Source: a virus (taxonomy: Duplodnaviria > Caudoviricetes). Taken from it: DNA of 55,532 bases. The notes below the pieces were generated by a model. It was not told the origin of the DNA and searched no databases. It was given only the letters and a program-made list of their open reading frames with translations. The stretch spans positions 1 to 55,532 of IMG/VR virus record IMGVR_UViG_3300015241_000005; one strand, given 5' to 3'. Position 1 is the first letter of the stretch, and each line of letters begins with the position of its first letter. The position numbers and the translations under genes were made by a program. Shown here in pieces: positions 5,027-14,429 of this stretch.

Positions 5027-5068
5027 CGTAACGTATTGCTCTTAAAGCCAAAACGTTTTACAGTACCT
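5027..5068 (-). other. Candidate cosQ/cosN packaging site
   Basis: Minus strand reads AGGTACT, 23 nt ending in G, a 12-mer, then C. Lambda has the same geometry (GGGTCCT, 23 nt, GGGCGGCGACCT). It lies upstream of the terS operon. Confidence 0.4.
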
Positions 5069-6063
5069 TTTATTCAAAATTCCAGCCCACCGTAAAACCA
5101 AAACGTTTTATATCGAAATCATTTCATACCGGCATACTTGAAACGTTAATACAGCCTCTCAGAGACACGATCAGCCGGCCAAACGTATCAATACACCAGA
5201 CAATATACTATAATCGTTTCTACCCACCTCAAATCAAGCCACACAGCCTATCAGGCGTATCCGAACACCTGTCTGAGAGCGTTTAAAGTATCAAAACATA
5301 GGATTTTAAACCTAATCCCCTATGGAACATGGGCATAGAACACCTAACACACTGATAACAAGCTATTTACAACTTCAGAGAAACGCAAGCTATTTCACAT
5401 TAACTAACAGGTAATCAAGCTATTATGCTATTACCAAACACACAAACAGAAAACAGCAGAACACTAAAAAGTTTGCGTTCCATCTCTTAATTAACTCTAC
5501 TACAGCTACTTACTACTATTAAAGATACGGAAACGCTAAAAGTACTATATAATATAAGGGAAAATAATAAATGTAAATTAATAATCGCAGAAGGGAATGG
5601 TTTTGTACGCATATGCGCGTACGCGTGAGCGTGCAGCCCCGCACATATAAGAGACTTTTCTTTGGGTAAAACACCTATTTGCGTGTATGTCGGTATGTAG
5701 ATCTATTGATTATCAAATAGTTATCTATGGGAACGCAATAAAAAGGCGTTTCGAAACCGTTTCCCGATATTATGTAATTAGTTGATTATTAGCTATTTAA
5801 TAAAACTGCCAAAAGGAACGCTAAAATATTTGCGTATCCTTAGCATACCTAACTTATTGATTATCAACAAGTTTTGCGTTTCTTTTAGCCGGCTAAATGC
5901 TCGATTTGAGCCTGGTTTTTGCCCGATTTTATGTTAAAAAGAGACTAAAACCAAAACGTTTTATGTAAAATTGTGTGAAAACCGCTTTGTCACGAATTTG
6001 TAAAACCAAAACGTTTTATAAATTATTTTAAAATAAATTTGGATATAAAACCAAAACGTTTTA
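5048..6063 (+). repeat. Five copies of (TAAAA)CCAAAACGTTTTA, with palindromic core AAAACGTTTT
   Basis: Copies at 5048-5060, 5093-5110, 5946-5963, 6001-6018 and 6046-6063. Confidence 0.9.
5330..5900. promoter_or_regulatory. Non-coding control region with IHF-consensus sites; candidate origin
   Basis: WATCAANNNNTTR matches at 5413-5425 (+), 5711-5723 (+), 5775-5787 (-) and 5850-5862 (-). GAA(A)CGC/GCGTT(T)C repeats occur in both orientations. Alternating purine/pyrimidine tract at 5604-5627. Confidence 0.5.
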
Positions 6064-6069
6064 TATTTG
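6038..6069 (+). promoter_or_regulatory. Early Bacteroidota primary-sigma promoter
   Basis: TTTG (6038-6041), 20 nt, TATATTTG (6062-6069). Confidence 0.8.
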
Positions 6070-6103
6070 TTCTGTCAATAAGGACAAACAAAACTTGCAA
6101 ATC

Positions 6104-6325
6104 ATGAAAGCAGAAAAATTAATATTTAATTCAAGCTACGACGCTGAGAAAATATTGCGTATCAAATATCCCGATTTAAAATGTGTAATGGTTGTTGCAT
6201 TTAGCATATCACACGCATATTATATGAATGATACATTGACTGAAAAAATAGCTGAAACGCGATATACAAATATTAAAAACACTACCTTTTTAGGGGTTAA
6301 GGTTGAATTAATTTATTTTAAATAA
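6104..6325 (+). CDS. Early hypothetical protein
   Basis: ATG within the shared leader AAAACTTGCAAATCATG. First gene after the promoter. Confidence 0.7.
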   Translation: MKAEKLIFNSSYDAEKILRIKYPDLKCVMVVAFSISHAYYMNDTLTEKIAETRYTNIKNTTFLGVKVELIYFK

Positions 6326-6327
6326 TC

Positions 6328-6480
6328 ATGAAAACTACGGATCAATTGCTTATCGAATTAAGCACACTAAAAGCAAAATTTGAAGCTTACCCGGATCGCC
6401 GATCTGGTGATCTATTAAAAGAAAAAATCCGAAATAAAGAAGCTGAGATTATGAAACGTTTATTAAAAGAAACCTTTTAA
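6328..6480 (+). CDS. Small helical hypothetical protein (50 aa)
   Basis: Manual translation MKTTDQLLIELSTLKAKF...KETF. AAATAATC leader; below the ORF-track cutoff. Confidence 0.6.
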   Translation: MKTTDQLLIELSTLKAKFEAYPDRRSGDLLKEKIRNKEAEIMKRLLKETF

Positions 6481-6534
6481 CTTTTTGAATTACTAATTGT
6501 TATATTTATCTAATTAAACAAACACATAGCAGTT

Positions 6535-6843
6535 ATGAAAACTTCACCTATAGAAATAAAATCGTTTATAAAAACATGCAATGCTTTGACTAAGGCATTT
6601 GAAACACCTTACTGGTCAATGGGCGATATATCATTTAAAGAAGAGCTTTGCATTACATTCATTGAAGAGAATAATGTACCCATACCATTGGCTGAAAAAA
6701 TGCTTTATAGAATTGGAATAACAAAGCGCAAAAGTCCTTTTGTTCATCTTTGGCTTAATAAACATATAGAATCAAGCATGGGTATGTTTATCGGTATAAC
6801 AGAATATGGTAATCGTAAACTTGAATTAATAAGAGGATTTTAA
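6535..6843 (+). CDS. Early hypothetical protein
   Basis: 102-aa ORF with an A-rich leader, co-oriented in the operon. Confidence 0.7.
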   Translation: MKTSPIEIKSFIKTCNALTKAFETPYWSMGDISFKEELCITFIEENNVPIPLAEKMLYRIGITKRKSPFVHLWLNKHIESSMGMFIGITEYGNRKLELIRGF

Positions 6844-6878
6844 CCAACCCACTACACAACATTAAAAATCAAAACGAT

Positions 6879-7010
6879 ATGAAAACTTTAAATCTAATCA
6901 AAGAATACGCAATCCCGGTAATAGTTTCTATTATCCTATTAGTCGCCGCAGGCATAGCTATCCACGAAATAGCAAATGGGCACTTCCACTCCGTTGCAGC
7001 GTTCCAATAA
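6879..7010 (+). CDS. Small single-TM membrane protein (43 aa)
   Basis: Manual translation MKTLNLIKEYAIPVIVSIILLVAAGIAIHEIANGHFHSVAAFQ. Confidence 0.65.
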   Translation: MKTLNLIKEYAIPVIVSIILLVAAGIAIHEIANGHFHSVAAFQ

Positions 7011-7014
7011 CAAA

Positions 7015-7066
7015 GGTTAACTGAAGAGCTGTAAATCAGCGAAACGGCTTAATAGCCGTCTTAATC
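7015..7066 (+). ncRNA. Type I hammerhead ribozyme
   Basis: Stem I GGUUAA/UUAAUC; core CUGAAGA; stem II GCUG-UAAAU-CAGC; GAAAC; stem III GGCU-UAAU-AGCC; GUC cleavage triplet at 7058-7060. Intergenic. Confidence 0.93.
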
Positions 7067-7088
7067 AAACATTAAAAACTTGCAAATC

Positions 7089-7403
7089 ATGAAAAATATA
7101 AAAACGTTAGATATCAAAGCCAAAGAATGGTTTGATAAATCAGCTGGAAACAGCTATTTCAGTGCTCAAATCACTATTGATTTTGCTTTAGATTCTGAAA
7201 AGACAATATACGTACCCATCCAATACGGGTACGGAGATCAATATCTTTATGAAGCATTGCGGCAATTGCAAACAGCTGGATTATTAGACGACAAGCCTAT
7301 TTACAGCCCTTCTCGATATTGCAGAGAACACAACATAATACTACGCGCATCTCTTACAGATAAATGCCTTAAAAGCGTTGTAAAACAATGGGGAAACAAT
7401 TAA
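7089..7403 (+). CDS. Early hypothetical protein
   Basis: WFDKSAGNSYFS...QYGYGDQY motifs; shared 17-nt leader. Confidence 0.8.
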   Translation: MKNIKTLDIKAKEWFDKSAGNSYFSAQITIDFALDSEKTIYVPIQYGYGDQYLYEALRQLQTAGLLDDKPIYSPSRYCREHNIILRASLTDKCLKSVVKQWGNN

Positions 7404-7406
7404 ACT

Positions 7407-7628
7407 ATGACTAACTGGCAAATCATATCAGCCGCCCAGCACAACGCTAATCAGGATAAAGCGTACACCCTTTACCTGCAAACAACTACAGAAACACCCA
7501 AAAAGAAACAATCCGAAATCGCGCCCTGCCTATCAGTCAATTACGGTTATGTGAAACAAACTGATCAGGGCATTACCTGGAGACCATTTAAAAGAGACTT
7601 AACAATTTATAAAACTTGCAAATCATGA
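7407..7628 (+). CDS. Early hypothetical protein
   Basis: 73-aa ORF packed between its neighbours, with an ATGA overlap. Confidence 0.6.
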   Translation: MTNWQIISAAQHNANQDKAYTLYLQTTTETPKKKQSEIAPCLSVNYGYVKQTDQGITWRPFKRDLTIYKTCKS

Positions 7629-8209
7629 AAACAATAGAAATTCAATTATTCAAATTCGCTGAATTATCAAGCGAAGCACAACAAAACGCAATACAAAAAG
7701 AGCGTGAATGTATGTACGAGACCGGCGAAGTTTTATATAACTTTTATGAATATTGCGTAGAAAAATTAACGGAATGTGGCTTTGTAAATCCTAAAATCGA
7801 ATATTCGTTATCCTATTCGCAGGGAGACGGACTAAGCTTTTGGGCTGATAGCTATACGATTTTAAATGATATTATTTTACGCACTGTGGGCGTTCACCAC
7901 CCCAAAATTACCGCCTTTTTATCGAACAATTTAGCATTAAAGATAAAGGGTAATAAAGGGCGTTATTGCTTTGCCTCAGAATCGGACATTGAAATGGAAT
8001 TGAGCTTTTACCCAAATAATGTTTGTCCGCAGGTTATTAGCCTTTTAGATAAGATATTAGAAAATATTCAAAGCGTGTATATGGCAACCTGTAAAGCGTT
8101 AGAGAACGACGGCTATGCCGAAATAGAATACCTGCAATCAGATAAAGCTATAATTGAAACCCTGGAAGCTAACGACTACGATTTTACCGCTAACGGTAAA
8201 ATATATTAA
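7625..8209 (+). CDS. Acidic protein of a family often annotated as antitoxin of toxin-antitoxin stability system (function unverified)
   Basis: LFKFAELSSEAQ...YSQGDGLSF...EYLQSDKAIIETLEANDYDFTANG pattern, recognised by eye. Confidence 0.65.
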   Translation: MKTIEIQLFKFAELSSEAQQNAIQKERECMYETGEVLYNFYEYCVEKLTECGFVNPKIEYSLSYSQGDGLSFWADSYTILNDIILRTVGVHHPKITAFLSNNLALKIKGNKGRYCFASESDIEMELSFYPNNVCPQVISLLDKILENIQSVYMATCKALENDGYAEIEYLQSDKAIIETLEANDYDFTANGKIY

Positions 8210-8242
8210 ACAATTTATAAATCACAAAAAAAACTTACGATC

Positions 8243-8437
8243 ATGACAACTACAGAATTAACCGAATTAATTACAGATATTTCTCTGTATGGATATGACT
8301 CTATCCGCGACATTGTGGACTACTCTGAAACAATAGGCGAAGTAGCGAGTTTACTTACCTCTTTCAAAGAGAGTATTGATAAGGCTTTACTAAATCTTGA
8401 TACGCTTAATCACGACGAAGAGTTAATCATTGAATAA
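8243..8437 (+). CDS. Small, highly acidic protein
   Basis: 64 aa, D/E-rich. Variant leader AAAACTTACGATCATG. Confidence 0.7.
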   Translation: MTTTELTELITDISLYGYDSIRDIVDYSETIGEVASLLTSFKESIDKALLNLDTLNHDEELIIE

Positions 8438-8487
8438 TATTGCCTGTAAAGGTTGATTGCAAGTTATCCAATAACAGAGCAATCAGT
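8429..8487 (+). ncRNA. Structured RNA, possible degenerate twister ribozyme
   Basis: P1 AUUGA/UCAGU, L1 AUAA, GC, loop UUGCAAG and GA-GCAA pseudoknot partner. P2 has one mismatch and P4 is weak. Confidence 0.35.
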
Positions 8488-8519
8488 ACCCTGCTTAGCT
8501 CAGCTACAGCGGGGTTTTT
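8488..8519 (+). terminator. Terminator-like hairpin inside the early operon
   Basis: ACCCTGCT-TAGCT-C-AGCTA-C-AGCGGGGT followed by TTTT. Confidence 0.55.
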
Positions 8520-8561
8520 GGGTGCCGGATAAATGGTTTATTCGGTTAAAACTTGCAAATC

Positions 8562-9032
8562 ATGTCAACATTAGTAAAATTCTACATCGACCAGGATATT
8601 TATAAAGGCGAAATATTCGCTTATTTTCCACAATTAAATTATAATAAGCACCTATATGGCAATACGGTTAAAACCGGATATGCTCATATCGGGCAACATA
8701 CCAGCATTAATGCTGATTATATTAAAAATTGTAAATCTGCAACCCCTTCTGAATACGAGGATCTTAAAATGGAACTTGAAGGTTTGGATTATAAACTTAA
8801 GATTTTAAATAAAGGTTGCAGGATATCTAAATATATTATCCCTTCTTATTGGACCTCAGCTTTATACGATGCTGATTATTCAAATATGCTGGATACAGAA
8901 ATTGATCAGCTTAATGATTGGTTAGCTAAAAATGATCCTGGTAATATAATAGATATTGATTATCGGGAAACCTATATGCAGTTTGAGAATTTGGGGCATA
9001 CGGTTGTTGAATGCACATTTATAAAATTTTAA
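8562..9032 (+). CDS. Early hypothetical protein, apparent two-domain fusion
   Basis: N-terminal YAHIGQH...ATPSEYEDLK-ELE module followed by an IPSYWTSALYDADYS module. Shared leader. Confidence 0.75.
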   Translation: MSTLVKFYIDQDIYKGEIFAYFPQLNYNKHLYGNTVKTGYAHIGQHTSINADYIKNCKSATPSEYEDLKMELEGLDYKLKILNKGCRISKYIIPSYWTSALYDADYSNMLDTEIDQLNDWLAKNDPGNIIDIDYRETYMQFENLGHTVVECTFIKF

Positions 9033-9036
9033 CATC

Positions 9037-9222
9037 ATGAACATTTACGGAGTATTAGACAGAAATGATTGCCACATTGATCTTACGCAATCATTAAAAG
9101 GCGCAAAGCGTTTCGCAACCCTTAACGGGTACGATAAAGTAAGTTGCCGAAATAGTAATAGCTATAATGTTACAATCCTTTTCGAGAAAATTAACAATAA
9201 ATGGAAACCTTTTCAATATTAA
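9037..9222 (+). CDS. Early hypothetical protein
   Basis: 61 aa with SLKGAKRFAT; tightly packed. Confidence 0.65.
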   Translation: MNIYGVLDRNDCHIDLTQSLKGAKRFATLNGYDKVSCRNSNSYNVTILFEKINNKWKPFQY

Positions 9223-9226
9223 AATC

Positions 9227-9478
9227 ATGAAATATTATTTTGTTTATTACAGCTGTTACCGTATTAATTGGCCTGCTAATCTGCCTGCCAATTCAAACAC
9301 AACATTCAATCAAGCATTAACCGTTGAACATCCCATTTCGTGGCAAATTGGATCTAATGAGCTTTACGATAAACGAATGTCGCTTGGCTCTGGAGAGTAC
9401 AGCGAGCACTATCAAGTTATCAGTTGGCAGGAATTGACTGAAGCGGAATATATTAAATTCAACGGATTAATAGGTTAG
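9227..9478 (+). CDS. Early hypothetical protein
   Basis: Start moved to AAAATCATG at 9227. Confidence 0.65.
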   Translation: MKYYFVYYSCYRINWPANLPANSNTTFNQALTVEHPISWQIGSNELYDKRMSLGSGEYSEHYQVISWQELTEAEYIKFNGLIG

Positions 9479-9482
9479 CATC

Positions 9483-9575
9483 ATGAAACAAGTCGCACTA
9501 CAATTTTTAGGCATGATAACCGGGTTTATCTTAGCCGCTGGTCTAACTACATTAGCTTACTTAATCTTTAAATAA
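9483..9575 (+). CDS. Small TM peptide (30 aa)
   Basis: Manual translation MKQVALQFLGMITGFILAAGLTTLAYLIFK. Fills the gap between its neighbours. Confidence 0.55.
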   Translation: MKQVALQFLGMITGFILAAGLTTLAYLIFK

Positions 9576-9577
9576 TT

Positions 9578-9787
9578 ATGAGCCTGATAGACGGACTAAT
9601 CATTCACACAATCGTTAACCCCGATAAACGTAGTCAACATTCTATGCTTATGGAGTTTTACCAGTTAGACGCTGAAATTGAACATGCTTACAACACTAAA
9701 AGCTATAAAGAATTATTTCATGACCTGAATTTCTACTTTAAGCAGGTAAAAGCCAAAGCACTATTAAAAGCCTTAAACATCATTTAA
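9578..9787 (+). CDS. Early hypothetical protein
   Basis: Co-oriented 69-aa ORF. Confidence 0.65.
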   Translation: MSLIDGLIIHTIVNPDKRSQHSMLMEFYQLDAEIEHAYNTKSYKELFHDLNFYFKQVKAKALLKALNII

Positions 9788-9802
9788 ATAATCCTCAACA
9801 AC

Positions 9803-9994
9803 ATGAAAACCTTCCTTCCAAAACTATTCACACCCTGCAGCCCTGCAAGCTTTACAGAACGCCGTCAGATCATTTTAAATAATTGGCAGCGTTACGGTTA
9901 CCAACGACGACCGCGCATGCCTCTCAGCCCGGCTAATAGCCTGTCAGAGCGAATTAACCAACTAATGTTTTGTCAAATTATTAAACCCGCTTAG
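9803..9994 (+). CDS. Small basic hypothetical protein
   Basis: Co-oriented 63-aa ORF. Confidence 0.5.
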   Translation: MKTFLPKLFTPCSPASFTERRQIILNNWQRYGYQRRPRMPLSPANSLSERINQLMFCQIIKPA

Positions 9995-9996
9995 CT

Positions 9997-10236
9997 ATGG
10001 AACATATAAGACAATTAATCCTTTTAGATAAGCTCGAAAGTGATTTGATAACGCTAAGAGCTGAATATGCAGCTTTGACACATTTAAACAACTGTTATGC
10101 AGATCCCGCGCGCTTGAAAACGGAAATAATTATCTGCGATGCTAAAATAGAAGCTATTGAGCAACAAATTGATGATATCTATACTATTATGAAAAAATCG
10201 GGTATCCTGGAAAATCTTACTAATTTGAAAAGATAA
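9997..10236 (+). CDS. Coiled-coil hypothetical protein
   Basis: 79 aa with heptad pattern. Confidence 0.65.
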   Translation: MEHIRQLILLDKLESDLITLRAEYAALTHLNNCYADPARLKTEIIICDAKIEAIEQQIDDIYTIMKKSGILENLTNLKR

Positions 10237-10255
10237 GAGCTTTGATATTCCTTTC

Positions 10256-10282
10256 AGCCTGCTAAGCGATTAGCGGGCTTTT
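10256..10282 (+). terminator. Terminator-like hairpin
   Basis: AGCCTGCTAA-GCGA-TTAGCGGGCT followed by TTT; GNRA loop. Confidence 0.6.
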
Positions 10283-10304
10283 CCGGCTAAAAACTAATCA
10301 TATT

Positions 10305-10559
10305 ATGGAAAAGGAATTTATATCGTGCATATTACCTCAATCGAAAATAAACGCTTCGATCATTGAGGGCAAAGGATTGCACTATTTTAAAGCTTTAGAA
10401 GCTTCAAATGGCAATACTGCTATACTCATAAAGGCTTTAATAATAGAGCTTACCAGGATTGAGCAAAAGTCTATTAATGAGCAATTTTTAAACGATTTAC
10501 ATATTCGGGACGTAATTAGATTAACAGATATTATAAACTTAATGGTGAGTGAACTATGA
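10305..10559 (+). CDS. Hypothetical protein
   Basis: 84-aa ORF with an A-rich leader. Confidence 0.7.
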   Translation: MEKEFISCILPQSKINASIIEGKGLHYFKALEASNGNTAILIKALIIELTRIEQKSINEQFLNDLHIRDVIRLTDIINLMVSEL

Positions 10560-10819
10560 AACAAAACAAAGAAGCAATCTACTTACACCCTGCGGATTTT
10601 AAAAAGCTTATAGAGCACCTAATTAAAGAATCAGACGAAACGTTTATAACAAATCCGCAATTTGTTATAAACGGCATTGAAATACACACGGACAATATTA
10701 TGCCCATAGATACATTCTTTATCTGTGAACCGGGCTTATTCGAGCTTTATAAACAAATTAAGTTACACCATTGGGTTGATAAATCCTATACGGACGATCA
10801 GCTGCAAAAGATAGCATAG
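10556..10819 (+). CDS. Hypothetical protein
   Basis: 87 aa with an ATGA overlap. Confidence 0.65.
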   Translation: MKQNKEAIYLHPADFKKLIEHLIKESDETFITNPQFVINGIEIHTDNIMPIDTFFICEPGLFELYKQIKLHHWVDKSYTDDQLQKIA

Positions 10820-10868
10820 AGCGTTTACGATCAGAAATTGACCTAAAATTCAGATTTTGAGGTCATTT

Positions 10869-10945
10869 TTAGCCCGATCCAGTTTTCCTGAGTTTTCACC
10901 AAGGGGTCAAAAATCTGAATGAAAATTCCGGCTGACAAAATTATA
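10869..10945 (+). repeat. 77-nt structured direct repeat, copy 1
   Basis: 66/77 identical to 11676-11752; folds as a long hairpin. Confidence 0.9.
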
Positions 10946-10970
10946 ATTTTTAAACTTAAAAACTAATAAC

Positions 10971-11414
10971 ATGAGCTTAAAATCAGAAAATCACAGAATA
11001 GGATCTTTTATAAAATACAATCCGATAATCAAAATAATTTTATCCGAAAAACTCGGAATATCTTTATATGAATTCAATAGAAAACTAAAAGCTAAGACTA
11101 CTAAAGGCGCTTTTTCAGAAAAGGAATTATCAGCAATAATCAATAAGATAATGGAAATTCTATCAGTCAGGATTCAAGATATATTGCAATCCAGGAAACC
11201 TAATTTTACAAAAACTTATCCCGAAAAGTTTCAAAATAGTTTGGAAAAATCAAAGGGGGTGGTATCGCCGGAAGCGCGGAAAAAGGAATTTCCTGGAGGT
11301 TCATTTGCGAACTCAGGCACAAACAATCCTGAAGTTTTCAGGCCTTTCGGCCTACAGCATATATGGTTTGATTGCGACGAAGAAGGTAATCCATTAACAA
11401 ATAAGCCAGAATAA
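10971..11414 (+). CDS. HTH-like DNA-binding protein
   Basis: LSEKLGISLYEFNRKLK...AFSEKEL is an XRE-like pattern. Confidence 0.65.
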   Translation: MSLKSENHRIGSFIKYNPIIKIILSEKLGISLYEFNRKLKAKTTKGAFSEKELSAIINKIMEILSVRIQDILQSRKPNFTKTYPEKFQNSLEKSKGVVSPEARKKEFPGGSFANSGTNNPEVFRPFGLQHIWFDCDEEGNPLTNKPE

Positions 11415-11416
11415 CC

Positions 11417-11674
11417 ATGGAAAACAAACAACTAAACCAACACCGGAAAGCCTTAATAGACATAATCCGGAAATGGAAACTAAATCAACCTATTATGGCT
11501 GCACAAATGAAAATGCCTGCAGGCACCTTCAAAAATAAAATGCTGGAAACTGCCGGCAAGTACGCATTCACCGACCAAGAGTTTTTAGAGCTCGCTAATG
11601 TCATAGACCGGCTATTGGGGGATCTAAAGCGGTTCTGTGATCAACTGGATTCAAAAACAGATTATTTAATATAA
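11417..11674 (+). CDS. HTH-like DNA-binding protein (paralog of 10971)
   Basis: MAAQMKMPAGTFKNKM...AFTDQEF. Confidence 0.65.
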   Translation: MENKQLNQHRKALIDIIRKWKLNQPIMAAQMKMPAGTFKNKMLETAGKYAFTDQEFLELANVIDRLLGDLKRFCDQLDSKTDYLI

Positions 11675-12035: not shown

Positions 12036-14429
12036 ATGTCAGAACTATCTATAGCGATCGGCAAGAGCCGTAAAACAAAAATTTGGAAAAATACCAAGAT
12101 TTCCTGGAATGATCTTGTAGACAAATTCCGGGAAACCACGAGAACGGGGGAAACTTATAAAGATTATATTTCTTCCAGCAAAGAAATGCAGGCGACGACT
12201 AAGGACCGCGGGGGTTTTGTCGGGGGGTTTTTAGACGAAGGTCAGCGTTCACCAGCCAATGTCGCATTCCGGCAAATACTTACACTCGATCTTGACTTTG
12301 CCGAAATTTCCTTTTGGCGCGACTTCAAACTATTCTTTGACTGCGAAGCAATCCTACATACAACCCACAAGCATAGCACAAAGTCCCCCAGATACCGAAT
12401 TATTATCCCACTGGCAGCTAAGGTCACCAAAGAACAATATGAGGCCATAGGCCGTAAAATAGCCGGAATACTGGACATCGAACTATTCGACCCTACCACA
12501 TTCCAGCCATCCCGTCTCATGTACTGGCCCACCAGCGCTAAAGATGGTCAATACATCTTCCACCACCAAGAGGGGACCTGGCTGGACCCACAGACGATCT
12601 TGAACCGTTATGAAAAGTGGGAGGATATAAGTTCCTGGCCTTTCCACGCCGATGAGATTGATCCAATGCGCATATTCGGTAAACAGGCTGGTGATCCAAA
12701 CACAAAACCCGGATTGATCGGAGCGTTTTGCAGGACCTACAATATACACGATGCTATTGCTAATTTCTTGGGTGATGTTTACAAACCTACAGATAATTCA
12801 AATAGATATACCTATGCCGGAAGTGAAGGTTTTGCCGGGGCTGTCGTATACGATGATAAATTCATATATAGTAATCACGGATCTGATCCGACCCAAGGCA
12901 GGCTCTTAAACTCTTGGGATTTAGTTCGACTGCATAAATACGGATTCGAAGATGCCGGAAACGCTGAAACGGAGATCAACAAGAAAAAGAGCCAAAAGCT
13001 CATGCAGGACTTAGCCAGTTCTGATGACGAAGTAATAGGTGAGTTGGGATTACACCGACTTTCGGATTCGGATTTCAATGACGGCTATATTTTTGATGAA
13101 GAAGATATAAACTGGATCAAGAAACTGGAAATCAATCGGAATGGTGATTACGAAGAAACCATTAACAATTTTAAACTGATCATTAAGCATGATCATAACT
13201 TAAAAGGCCGATTGATGTACAACGAGTTCAGTCACCGGGAGACAACATTACTACCCCTCCCATGGCGAGCAGGTACCGGTCTTGTGGATTTCGTAGACAG
13301 TGACGATAGCGGTTTACGTCATTACATGGAACAGACTTATGGGCTATATCACGTAGCTAAGTCCCAGGATGCCATGAGGATTATCTTCATAGAGAATGCT
13401 TTCCATCCAGTGCGTGAATACCTGGAAAGCCTGACATGGGATGGCCGGGAACGGATAGAGCGGTTAATGGTTAACCATCTCGGGGCTGAGGATACACACT
13501 TTAACCGATCGGCTACACGCAAAGCGCTGGTAGCTGCAGTCGCACGGGTGTTCATACCTGGATGTAAGTTCGATTACATGCCCATCCTGATAGGCCCACA
13601 GGGCATCGGGAAAAGCCGGATCATAGATAAACTCGGGATGGAATGGTATTCAGATAGTTTCTTGGGCGTGGAAGGCACGCAGGCATACGAACAGCTGCAG
13701 GGGATTTGGTTAATGGAAGTGGCCGAACTTGCTGGTATGAAGAAAGCTGATGTCGACTCTGTTAAGCATTTTGTGAGTAAACGCGTAGACCGGTTCCGGG
13801 TAGCTTATGGCAAACGATCGATGCCCTTCCCGAGGCAAGGCACCTTTTGGGGCACAGATAACCGGCCCTACCCGTTAAAAGATGATACAGGTGGCCGCCG
13901 ATTTTGGCCGATACCAGTGACCGGTTACGGCGTATTCGATGTGGATGAGGTAGATGTTGACCAAGTGTGGGCCGAAGCTAAGGTTTACTTTGACGAAGGA
14001 GAGCAATTGTACTTCGATACAGTAACAGAGCAAGAGGCGCGGGAAGTACAAGCCAGTCACACAGAACAGGATGATCGCGCCGGCATGATCGCTAATTATC
14101 TCTCTGTTCAATTGCCGGTAGTTTGGCCGACCATGGGACTTTACGAACGGCAGGCATATGTAGGTAACTCAGTCGAACAGTCGGAAGCGGGTGAGCTTGA
14201 TCGATTGTCCGTCTGTGCCGCTGAGATTTGGTGCGAGTTGTTCAAAGGAACGCTGAAGGACATGGGTAGCCATAATACGAAATACATACACCAGATCATG
14301 GCTAATATGCCAGGATGGGAGAAAGCGGAAAATGCGTTAACGTTCCCGATGTATGGGAAACAGCGCGCTTATGTGTTGAAAGGGAAAACATTAACAAGGA
14401 ATGGTAAACGTAAAGCAGATAGAATATGA
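12036..14429 (+). CDS. Primase-helicase (AEP-like N-terminus plus VapE/VirE P-loop domain)
   Basis: LTLDLD, HTTHKH and PRYRIIIPL primase motifs; Walker A GPQGIGKS; LMEVAEL; GGRRFWP. Confidence 0.92.
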   Translation: MSELSIAIGKSRKTKIWKNTKISWNDLVDKFRETTRTGETYKDYISSSKEMQATTKDRGGFVGGFLDEGQRSPANVAFRQILTLDLDFAEISFWRDFKLFFDCEAILHTTHKHSTKSPRYRIIIPLAAKVTKEQYEAIGRKIAGILDIELFDPTTFQPSRLMYWPTSAKDGQYIFHHQEGTWLDPQTILNRYEKWEDISSWPFHADEIDPMRIFGKQAGDPNTKPGLIGAFCRTYNIHDAIANFLGDVYKPTDNSNRYTYAGSEGFAGAVVYDDKFIYSNHGSDPTQGRLLNSWDLVRLHKYGFEDAGNAETEINKKKSQKLMQDLASSDDEVIGELGLHRLSDSDFNDGYIFDEEDINWIKKLEINRNGDYEETINNFKLIIKHDHNLKGRLMYNEFSHRETTLLPLPWRAGTGLVDFVDSDDSGLRHYMEQTYGLYHVAKSQDAMRIIFIENAFHPVREYLESLTWDGRERIERLMVNHLGAEDTHFNRSATRKALVAAVARVFIPGCKFDYMPILIGPQGIGKSRIIDKLGMEWYSDSFLGVEGTQAYEQLQGIWLMEVAELAGMKKADVDSVKHFVSKRVDRFRVAYGKRSMPFPRQGTFWGTDNRPYPLKDDTGGRRFWPIPVTGYGVFDVDEVDVDQVWAEAKVYFDEGEQLYFDTVTEQEAREVQASHTEQDDRAGMIANYLSVQLPVVWPTMGLYERQAYVGNSVEQSEAGELDRLSVCAAEIWCELFKGTLKDMGSHNTKYIHQIMANMPGWEKAENALTFPMYGKQRAYVLKGKTLTRNGKRKADRI

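What the first reader, a model, noticed from the sequence alone, without database searches (positions are those of the whole stretch)
7015..7066. Canonical hammerhead ribozyme inside the early operon
Seen: all conserved core nucleotides (CUGAAGA, GAAA, GUC) and three paired stems. The element starts 4 nt after the stop of a small TM gene. The predicted cut after C7060 lies 28 nt before the next ATG (7089). Known: hammerheads occur between small phage genes and leave 5'-OH and 2',3'-cyclic phosphate ends, but their role there is largely unresolved. Inference: it splits the early transcript and sets the stability or translation of downstream cistrons. Stem I is only 6 bp and I see no obvious tertiary loop contact.
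Basis: partly seen in the sequence, partly recalled or inferred. Interest (0 to 1): 0.85.

Follow-up and report, generated by a model that had tools for sequence, protein, structure and literature searches.

The report
Hammerhead ribozyme between phage early genes
The flagged 52 bases are a genuine-looking self-cutting hammerhead RNA sitting between two small genes of an uncultured phage, an ordinary new example of a ribozyme class already known to be common in phages and whose purpose there is still untested.

Summary
Window 7015-7066 (+) is a complete type I hammerhead: 6-bp stem I, CUGAAGA, 4-bp stem II, GAAA, 6-bp stem III, GUC, with the cut predicted at 7060/7061. It starts 4 nt after a stop codon, and the cut lies 28 nt before the next ATG. 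It is the only such motif in the 55.5-kb phage genome. In 1000 dinucleotide shuffles, 5 loose matches arose and none as good. Other uncultured phages carry the same core and stem II with different, still-pairing stems I and III: 109 of 127 pattern occurrences form a full hammerhead, against 41 of 2540 with shuffled flanks. Rfam thresholds are not reached. Cleavage and transcription are untested. Most likely it cuts a polycistronic early mRNA into two parts. Phage hammerheads in this position are published (PMC3088659), and this scan already holds 120 notes matching hammerhead, ribozyme and intergenic. New member of a known kind. A side observation is a 17-nt leader shared by four early genes, one copy starting 14 nt after the cut.

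The parts
7015..7066 (+). Complete type I hammerhead ribozyme motif (stem I open, stems II and III capped)
   Evidence: Sequence; MFE fold; only descriptor hit in the window; 0 of 1000 shuffles as good; own covariance model 51 bits with next best 9.7 bits (the window sequence was 1 of the 40 used to build the model)
7015..7020 (+). Stem I, 5' arm (GGUUAA), pairs with 7061-7066
   Evidence: All 6 stem I pairs show changes on both sides among 40 aligned phage hammerheads
7021..7027 (+). Catalytic core C3-A9 (CUGAAGA)
   Evidence: matches the consensus CUGANGA used in PMC3088659 (methods passage read)
7028..7040 (+). Stem II hairpin GCUG-UAAAU-CAGC (G10.1-C11.1 next to the core)
   Evidence: Identical in an unrelated phage contig, L007
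7041..7044 (+). Core G12 A13 A14 and A15.1 (GAAA)
7044..7059 (+). Stem III hairpin (A15.1-U16.1 plus CGGCU/AGCCG, loop UAAU)
   Evidence: base-pair probability 0.96-0.97 in every sequence context tried
7060..7061 (+). Predicted scissile bond, after C17 (7060) and before U1.1 (7061)
   Evidence: Follows from the hammerhead numbering applied; not tested
7061..7066 (+). Stem I, 3' arm (UUAAUC); would be the first 6 nt of the 3' product
7014..7014 (+). Unpaired A just 5' of stem I. Together with A7067 it is invariant in the sub-group
   Evidence: 19 of 19 unique sub-group members have A/A flanks and a 6-bp stem I; 2 Bacteroidota genome copies have the same
7067..7067 (+). Unpaired A just 3' of stem I
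6879..7010 (+). Upstream ORF, 43 aa, one hydrophobic segment, no family match
7089..7403 (+). Downstream ORF, 104 aa, phrog_6246 (unknown function)
7075..7091 (+). One of four exact copies of the leader AAAACTTGCAAATCATG, ending in the start codon; begins 14 nt after the predicted cut
6062..6069 (+). TATATTTG, candidate promoter box for the plus-strand block (the consensus TAnnTTTG for Bacteroidota is recalled, not from a call)
   Evidence: plus-strand matches at 6034 and 6062, then none until 13088. The scan overall is hardly above chance (83 matches against 68.8 expected)
8488..8519 (+). Terminator-like hairpin plus U run, possible end of the transcript that holds the ribozyme
   Evidence: 88-nt fold, z -3.09, 0 of 200 shuffles as good

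Best explanation
A constitutive, self-cleaving type I hammerhead ribozyme lies in the 78-nt gap between two small plus-strand genes of a complete 55.5-kb contractile-tailed phage, probably of a Bacteroidota (Flavobacteriia-like) host. Once transcribed as part of a multi-gene early mRNA, stems I-III fold around the CUGAAGA/GAAA core. The 2'-OH of C7060 then attacks its own 3' phosphate. This gives an upstream RNA that ends in the stem II and stem III hairpins with a 2',3'-cyclic phosphate. It also gives a downstream RNA that begins with 5'-OH U7061 and a 28-nt unstructured A-rich leader before the ATG at 7089. The cut uncouples the fates (stability and/or translation) of the four ORFs upstream from those downstream. 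Shown here: the motif, its improbability by chance, covariation in relatives, and the recurrent position between same-strand ORFs. Inferred: transcription, cleavage, and every consequence for expression.
For: The motif is complete with all core positions canonical. It is the minimum-energy fold of the isolated element. There is one site per genome, with 5 loose and 0 equal hits in 1000 shuffles. An unrelated phage contig (L007) has an identical core and stem II, but stem I is GUCUAU/AUAGAC and stem III is CGCC/GGCG, and the flanks are unalignable. Of 127 occurrences of the core+stem II pattern in IMG/VR loci, 109 have correctly placed stems I and III and UH, against 41 of 2540 with shuffled flanks. 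In an alignment of 40 sequences, 9 of 13 pairs change on both sides, and the covariation score is 0.595 against 0.121 in shuffles and 0.03-0.07 when partners are slid. Those 40 were chosen by a descriptor that demands pairing, so the 100% paired figure is by construction; one search is the uncircular test. Position: 60 of 91 unique phage hammerheads have a same-strand ATG-ORF starting within 50 nt after the element, against 8 of 91 on the antisense strand and 392 of 1820 at random positions. Also, 55 of 91 have an ORF stop within -6 to 30 nt before the element, against 25 of 91 and 334 of 1820. The predicted 3' product leader is unstructured. All neighbouring ORFs are on the + strand and upstream of the primase-helicase. 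Published precedent: hammerheads flank genes in prophages and may process long phage transcripts (PMC3088659, passages read).
Against: There is no RNA or biochemical evidence. Rfam models do not call it. With 25 nt or more of upstream coding sequence, the thermodynamic model prefers another hairpin (6992-7041) by 2.3-6.4 kcal/mol. The probability of stem II then falls from 0.99 to 0.00-0.09. No close relative of this phage was available, so conservation at the same locus could not be checked. Six distant loci found through the two neighbouring proteins (26-47% identity) have no hammerhead. Stem I is AU-rich and has low predicted probability even in isolation (0.31-0.40).
Confidence: 0.78

Rival explanations
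1. Conditional ribozyme. The last codons of the upstream ORF (6992-7004) pair with the stem I 5' arm, the core and both arms of stem II. The ribozyme would then fold and cut only when a ribosome translating the upstream ORF, or co-transcriptional timing, keeps that competitor open. Cleavage would be coupled to upstream translation.
For: The MFE of 6940-7140 uses the competitor hairpin. Native P(stem II) is 0.018, against a median of 0.96 when the 55 upstream nt are shuffled; 1.7% of 300 shuffles are as low. PMC3088659 (discussion passage) raises regulated cleavage for phage hammerheads.
Against: It is not a family trait. Among 79 unique type I contexts, 8 have native P(stem II) below 0.1, and 12 fall at or below 5% of their 20 shuffles, where about 7-8 are expected by chance. 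Nearest-neighbour energies ignore the tertiary contacts that stabilise the active fold. This is a single-sequence prediction found after looking.
Confidence: 0.1
2. The ribozyme is a way to make a new 5' end without a promoter. The cut places the shared early-gene leader AAAACUUGCAAAUC-AUG near a 5'-OH end (28-nt leader). This mimics the short leader of the promoter-proximal gene at 6104, so that gene 7089 is translated or stabilised like a first cistron in a host that does not use Shine-Dalgarno pairing.
For: There are four exact copies of the 17-mer, each ending in an ORF's ATG. Copy 1 follows a TATATTTG box by about 20 nt. The same 17-mer in 39 other phage loci is followed by an ORF of 40 or more codons in 32 of 39. 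By my reading of the printout, in about 23 it is preceded by a conserved TATATTTG box and a hairpin. A second phage fragment (L185) has a sub-group hammerhead followed by AAAACTTGCAATTATG. In the sub-group the cut-to-ATG distance is 19-41 nt in 15 of the 16 distinct downstream ORFs found in other loci; the one outlier, at 7 nt, has an ambiguous start. The window's own distance is 28 nt. No ORF in the block has a GGAGG-type site.
Against: Leader copy 3 (7611) lies inside the end of another ORF with no processing element seen, and copy 4 follows a plain hairpin, so the leader does not need a nearby 5' end. None of the 39 other leader loci has a hammerhead within 300 nt. Most sub-group hammerheads precede other leaders. 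The promoter consensus and the start-site distance are recalled, not tested.
Confidence: 0.2
3. A chance or decayed look-alike that folds but does not cut, acting at most as a plain 3' stabilising hairpin or a weak terminator.
For: Rfam scores are far below threshold. Stem III alone is the only helix predicted stable in every context. PMC3088659 lists hammerhead-like sequences that were inactive in vitro (passages read).
Against: There were 0 of 1000 shuffles as good. Every core position is canonical, with no mispair next to the core. The same build recurs with compensatory changes. The stem III hairpin is not followed by a U run and is not listed by the terminator scan.
Confidence: 0.05

Closest known systems
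Type I hammerhead ribozymes of bacteria, prophages and phages (Perreault et al. 2011, PMC3088659; Rfam RF00163, clan CL00010)
   Same: The 13 core positions are identical to the published consensus. There is no mispair next to the core. The topology is open stem I with capped stems II and III, and helix III is long. It lies between same-strand genes of unknown and variable identity in a phage (paper passages read).
   Different: It scores below Rfam gathering thresholds: best match is HH9 at 15.5 bits against 52. None of 20 related loci reached a threshold either. No Watson-Crick pseudoknot of the kind that paper describes is evident. Instead the sub-group keeps a 6-bp stem I bounded by A/A and a UNNNU loop II.
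Clustered hammerheads flanking genes in prophages (Perreault et al. 2011, Figure 3 legend and text passage)
   Same: The proposed role is the same: processing long phage transcripts into shorter mRNAs.
   Different: Here there is a single copy per genome, so excision or circularisation of a gene-length RNA between two ribozymes does not apply. Some related contigs do hold two or three.
Type I hammerheads in intergenic UTRs of chrysoviruses and fusariviruses, placed just upstream of ORFs (de la Pena and co-workers, NAR 2026, PMC13725137, passages read)
   Same: A type I hammerhead with a long helix III fills a short intergenic gap a few to tens of nt before the next start codon, so cleavage yields an RNA whose 5' end lies just before the ORF.
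   Different: Those are RNA viruses of eukaryotes, where the paper links cleavage to translation initiation. This is a DNA phage of bacteria, and nothing has been tested.

Membership tests
Hammerhead ribozyme (criteria of Perreault et al. 2011, PMC3088659, methods passage) | Core C3 U4 G5 A6 N7 G8 A9 | tested here: met
   CUGAAGA at 7021-7027
Hammerhead ribozyme (criteria of Perreault et al. 2011) | Core G12 A13 A14 A15.1, U16.1, H17 | tested here: met
   GAAA at 7041-7044, U7059, C7060
Hammerhead ribozyme (criteria of Perreault et al. 2011) | No mispair directly next to the core (10.1-11.1, 1.1-2.1, 15.1-16.1) | tested here: met
   G7028-C7040, U7061-A7020, A7044-U7059
Hammerhead ribozyme | Three helices supported by compensatory change in relatives | tested here: met
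   109 of 127 pattern occurrences complete against 41 of 2540 with shuffled flanks. 9 of 13 pairs change on both sides. L007 has different stems I and III. No same-locus relatives were available.
Hammerhead ribozyme | Site-specific self-cleavage giving 2',3'-cyclic phosphate and 5'-OH ends | not testable with these tools
   No RNA run was listed for this DNA
Hammerhead ribozyme | Tertiary contact between stem I and loop II needed for speed at cellular Mg2+ (established knowledge, recalled; also stated in a PMC13725137 passage) | tested here: inconclusive
   No base-paired pseudoknot was found by eye in the flanks. The sub-group has invariant geometry: stem I is 6 bp and flanks are A/A in 19 of 19. 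The sister group with a 5-bp stem II and 7-nt loop mostly has a 5-bp stem I (24 of 39).
Rfam hammerhead families (RF00163, RF00008, RF02275, RF02276, RF02277) | Covariance-model score at or above the curated gathering score | tested here: not met
   0 matches at gathering. HH9 scores 15.5 bits against 52. 0 matches at E<=5 over the whole window.
Type I topology | 5' and 3' ends leave through stem I; stems II and III closed by loops | tested here: met

The most novel reading that the evidence does not exclude
In a group of Bacteroidota phages, a compact hammerhead sub-family (A / 6-bp stem I / A, 4-bp stem II, UNNNU loop) acts as a promoter-independent generator of 5' ends. In this phage it hands an internal early gene the same short leader, AAAACUUGCAAAUC-AUG, that promoter-proximal genes carry. 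In a host without Shine-Dalgarno-led initiation, the gene would then be translated and protected (5'-OH) as if it were a first cistron. That would give phage hammerheads a concrete, testable job.
Probability: 0.2. Interest if true: 0.6.

Novelty: new member of a known kind. Interest (0 to 1): 0.3.

Why it matters
On its own it adds one more phage hammerhead to thousands. Modest value lies in three points. First, the standard Rfam models miss this compact sub-family: neither the window nor any of 20 related loci reached a threshold, so such sites go unannotated. Second, the fixed 6-bp stem I with A/A flanks and a UNNNU loop II is a simple, testable candidate for a tertiary contact in an open-ended type I ribozyme. 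Third, the element sits next to a short leader shared by four early genes and by dozens of other phage contigs. That gives a clean reporter design for the long-open question of what intergenic ribozymes do for phages (stated as open in PMC6765202, passage read).

Tried and rejected
- **RNA evidence.** The look-up of sequencing runs listed no RNA holder for 5700-8700. No read-level test was possible.
- **Close relatives.**
  - megablast of 6000-9000 against phage records gave no match.
  - Loci found through the downstream ORF (3 loci, 39-47% identity) and through ORF 7616-8206 (3 loci, 26-33%) have no hammerhead. They are too distant to count as loss at the same site.
  - The exact 25-mer in metagenome contigs found only the contig already seen as L007.
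- **Other ribozymes or a second hammerhead in the window.** None was found by Rfam, by my descriptor, or by the model R1 with filters off, where the next best hit was 9.7 bits, E 1.1.
- **Minus-strand reading.** An STnc50 match of 16.7 bits against a gathering score of 55, E 3, is just the stem III hairpin read backwards. Rejected.
- **Terminator reading of stem III.** No U run follows it, and it is not in the terminator scan.
- **Competitor-helix switch.** It looks notable for this sequence but is not a property of the family. Kept only as a low-odds rival.
- **A shared downstream gene as the ribozyme's client.** Rejected. Downstream ORFs of sub-group members differ: ArdC-N in L007, Kyano_Gp96 in L050, and no Pfam family in 12 of 14.
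- **Function of neighbouring ORFs.** 9 of 10 have no Pfam match; the tenth has only a sub-threshold DUF6926 hit, 16.8 bits against a cutoff of 27. PHROGs gives only families of unknown function.
- **Earlier notes of this scan.** There are none on this genome or on look-alike sequence, and none for the shared leader by words.

Full report
**What is there**

The window is a whole IMG/VR virus record of 55,532 bases with direct terminal repeats and 39% G+C. At 7015-7066 on the plus strand the sequence reads GGUUAA / CUGAAGA / GCUG-UAAAU-CAGC / GAAA / CGGCU-UAAU-AGCCG / U C / UUAAUC. In hammerhead numbering every core position is canonical:
- C3-A9 is CUGAAGA.
- G12 A13 A14 A15.1 is GAAA.
- U16.1 is U7059 and C17 is C7060.
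- The three pairs next to the core are standard: G10.1-C11.1, U1.1-A2.1 and A15.1-U16.1.

Stems II and III are capped and stem I is open, so this is a type I hammerhead with the scissile bond between 7060 and 7061. The upstream ORF (6879-7010, 43 aa with one hydrophobic segment) stops 4 nt before the element. The next ATG (7089, a 104-aa ORF) lies 28 nt after the cut.

**Is it more than chance?**

- The isolated element (7005-7076) has the three-way junction as its minimum-energy fold: -14.9 kcal/mol, z -3.24, 1 of 200 shuffles as good.
- A descriptor I wrote asks for the core, stem I of at least 4 bp, stem II of at least 3 bp, and stem III of at least 4 bp including A15.1-U16.1. It finds this one site on both strands.
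- In 1000 dinucleotide-preserving shuffles of the whole genome it found 5 hits at these loose settings and none with stems as long as the real ones.
- Rfam does not call the element. There are 0 matches at gathering scores and 0 at E<=5 over the whole window. On 6900-7200 alone, Hammerhead_HH9 scores 15.5 bits against a gathering score of 52, E 0.38.
- This is a general weakness of the Rfam models for these compact phage hammerheads. In 20 related loci no match reached a gathering score; the best were RF00008 at 44.4 against 48.5 and RF00163 at 28.4 against 34.

**Relatives and covariation**

- The exact core-stem II-GAAAC 25-mer occurs in one other viral contig (L007). Its flanks do not align with the window. 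Stem I there is GUCUAU/AUAGAC and stem III is CGCC/GGCG, and both still pair.
A complete type I or type III hammerhead was found in 104 of the 122 loci examined; 18 had none.
- The uncircular test selected sites only by core plus stem II. Of 127 sites, 109 have stems I and III and UH in the right places, against 41 of 2540 when the 100-nt flanks are shuffled.
- I aligned the window with 39 unique short type I members, those of 58 nt or less out of the roughly 74 type I found.
  - In that alignment 9 of 13 scored pairs change on both sides.
  - There are 120 doubly changed cells, against 31 expected.
  - The covariation score is 0.595, against 0.121 in shuffles and 0.03-0.07 with partners slid.
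  - The 100% pairing in this alignment is by construction, because the descriptor chose the rows.
- A covariance model built from the alignment hits the window once: 51 bits (the window is 1 of the 40 training rows), with the next best at 9.7 bits, E 1.1, filters off. It hits one or two sites in each of five other phage records.

**The closest sub-group and the tertiary-contact question**

Restricting to a 4-bp stem II with a UNNNU loop gave 26 viral loci. All 27 occurrences, window included, are complete hammerheads.

Among 19 unique sequences of this build, stem I is exactly 6 bp in 19 of 19. The bases just outside it are A (5') and A (3') in 19 of 19, although there are 6 different stem I sequences and 18 different stem I/stem III combinations. 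The sister group, with a 5-bp stem II and a 7-nt loop (39 unique), mostly has a 5-bp stem I (24 of 39) and A/A (23) or A/C (10) flanks.

Stem lengths that change together, and invariant unpaired A's where a capping loop would sit in other hammerheads, are what one expects if the end of stem I docks on loop II. That contact is known to be needed for fast cleavage at cellular Mg2+. This last point is established knowledge that I recall; it is also stated in a passage of PMC13725137.

Two genome copies of the sub-group pattern exist in the species-representative genome set, in MAGs labelled Agriterribacter and Pedobacter. Both are Bacteroidota by my recall of taxonomy; I made no look-up. Both have the same build.

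**Context**

PHROGs places the following on the minus strand: terminase, portal, protease, major head protein, tail sheath, tape measure and tail fibre. It places a primase-helicase at 12036-14429 on the plus strand. The ribozyme lies in a run of small plus-strand ORFs (6104-11674) with no Pfam function, upstream of the replication genes. This supports 'early operon' as an inference from gene order.

The nearest terminases are those of Cellulophaga phage phiSM (45.7%) and Flavobacterium phages (about 39%). No start codon in the block has a GGAGG-type site; the leaders are A-rich. Both points suggest a Flavobacteriia-like host.

A TAnnTTTG box (consensus recalled) occurs on the plus strand at 6034 and 6062 and then not again until 13088. 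That motif overall is hardly above chance (83 matches against 68.8 expected). A terminator-like hairpin with a U run lies at 8488-8519. A transcript from about 6074 to about 8519, with four ORFs before and four after the ribozyme, is a reasonable guess and no more.

Across 91 unique phage hammerheads from the fetched loci, the window's arrangement is typical:
- A same-strand ATG-ORF starts within 50 nt after the element in 60 of 91, against 8 of 91 on the antisense strand and 392 of 1820 at random positions.
- An ORF stop lies within -6 to 30 nt before the element in 55 of 91, against 25 of 91 and 334 of 1820.
- For type I members the median distance from cut to ATG is 31 nt.
- Downstream genes differ: ArdC-N in L007, Kyano_Gp96 in L050, and no Pfam family in 12 of 14.

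This agrees with the published statement that the flanked genes are not constant (PMC3088659, passage read).

**How it most likely works**

The chemistry follows from class membership. The 2'-OH of C7060 attacks its phosphate and leaves a 2',3'-cyclic phosphate on the upstream RNA and a 5'-OH on U7061. The upstream product ends in two stable hairpins. The downstream product starts with a leader predicted to be unstructured up to and beyond the ATG.

The likely effect is to uncouple the stability or translation of the two halves of the message. Perreault et al. 2011 and the review PMC6765202 propose this and describe it as unproven (passages read). Nothing here shows transcription or cleavage. 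No RNA run was listed.

**A complication**

With 25 nt or more of upstream coding sequence, the nearest-neighbour model prefers a hairpin pairing 6992-7004 with the stem I arm, the core and stem II.
- The MFE is 2.3-6.4 kcal/mol below the hammerhead-constrained fold.
- P(stem II) falls from 0.99 to 0.00-0.09.
- Shuffling the 55 upstream nt restores stem II in most cases (median 0.96), and only 1.7% of 300 shuffles are as low as the native sequence.

This could mean translation-coupled or timed cleavage. But among 79 unique type I contexts only 8 have P(stem II) below 0.1. Twelve fall beyond their shuffles, where about 7-8 are expected by chance. So it is not a family trait, and I keep it as a low-odds rival.

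**Side observation bearing on function**

The 17-mer AAAACTTGCAAATCATG occurs four times, always on the plus strand (6090, 7075, 7611, 8548). Each copy ends in the ATG of an ORF, and the flanks are unrelated (shuffles give a mean of 0.41). The copy at 7075 begins 14 nt after the cut. The copy at 6090 follows the TATATTTG box by about 20 nt.

The same 17-mer is in 39 other viral loci. In 32 of 39 it opens an ORF of 40 or more codons. In about 23, by my reading of the printout, it is preceded by a conserved TATATTTG box and a GCAAUUC...GGGUUGC hairpin, while the ORFs differ. None of these loci has a hammerhead within 300 nt.

One other phage fragment (L185) has a sub-group hammerhead whose core TGA is the stop codon of the upstream ORF. 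It is followed by AAAACTTGCAATTATG.

This suggests, without showing, that the ribozyme gives an internal gene a first-cistron-like short leader. Against this, leader copies 3 and 4 have no processing element that I could see.

**Comparison with what is known, and novelty**

This meets every sequence criterion of the published hammerhead definition and the type I topology. It fails only the Rfam score thresholds. Intergenic hammerheads in phages and prophages have been described since 2011 (PMC3088659), and their role is still called open (PMC6765202). This scan already holds 120 notes that match hammerhead, ribozyme and intergenic, in at least 115 genomes.

It is therefore a new member of a known kind. 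The sub-group's fixed geometry and the adjacent shared leader are small additions that would make good bench tests.

Noticed in passing
window 6090-6106, 7075-7091, 7611-7627, 8548-8564 (+): There are four exact copies of AAAACTTGCAAATCATG, each ending in an ORF start codon, with unrelated flanks (shuffles give a mean of 0.41 matches). The same 17-mer heads unrelated ORFs in 39 other IMG/VR loci. About 23 of those have a conserved TATATTTG box plus a GCAATTC..GGGTTGC hairpin upstream. It looks like a promoter-leader cassette shared by a phage group.
   Followed up: partly
window 5045-5061, 5095-5111, 5948-5964, 6003-6019, 6048-6064 (+): There are five copies (four exact, one with 2 mismatches) of AAACCAAAACGTTTTAT, with the palindromic core AAAACGTTTT. 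They lie in the divergent region between the minus-strand terminase block and the plus-strand small-ORF block, and the last copy abuts the TATATTTG box. They look like operators or iterons (shuffles give a mean of 0.01).
   Followed up: no
window 8488-8546 (+): A terminator-like hairpin with a U run (8488-8519) is followed at once by a 10-bp hairpin (8524-8546), just before leader copy 4. The fold has z -3.09, with 0 of 200 shuffles as good.
   Followed up: no
L027 / L047 / L072 (IMG/VR loci), positions 14-69, 396-455, 703-763: Three type I hammerheads lie about 350 nt apart and share the same stem I sequence (ACCGC/GCGGT). This is the clustered arrangement described for prophages. Identical stem I arms would allow the excised pieces to pair end to end.
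   Followed up: no
L185 295-352: In this phage fragment the TGA inside the hammerhead core CUGAUGA is the stop codon of the upstream 90-aa ORF, so the ribozyme overlaps the end of a coding region.
   Followed up: partly
window 6992-7041 (+): An alternative hairpin between the last codons of ORF 6879-7010 and the 5' half of the ribozyme is predicted more stable than the active fold. It is not seen as a family trait.
   Followed up: yes
20 related loci (L007, L050, L087 and others): Rfam release 15 hammerhead models reach their gathering score in none of 20 phage loci that hold descriptor-perfect hammerheads. This compact phage group is under-detected by standard annotation.
   Followed up: partly
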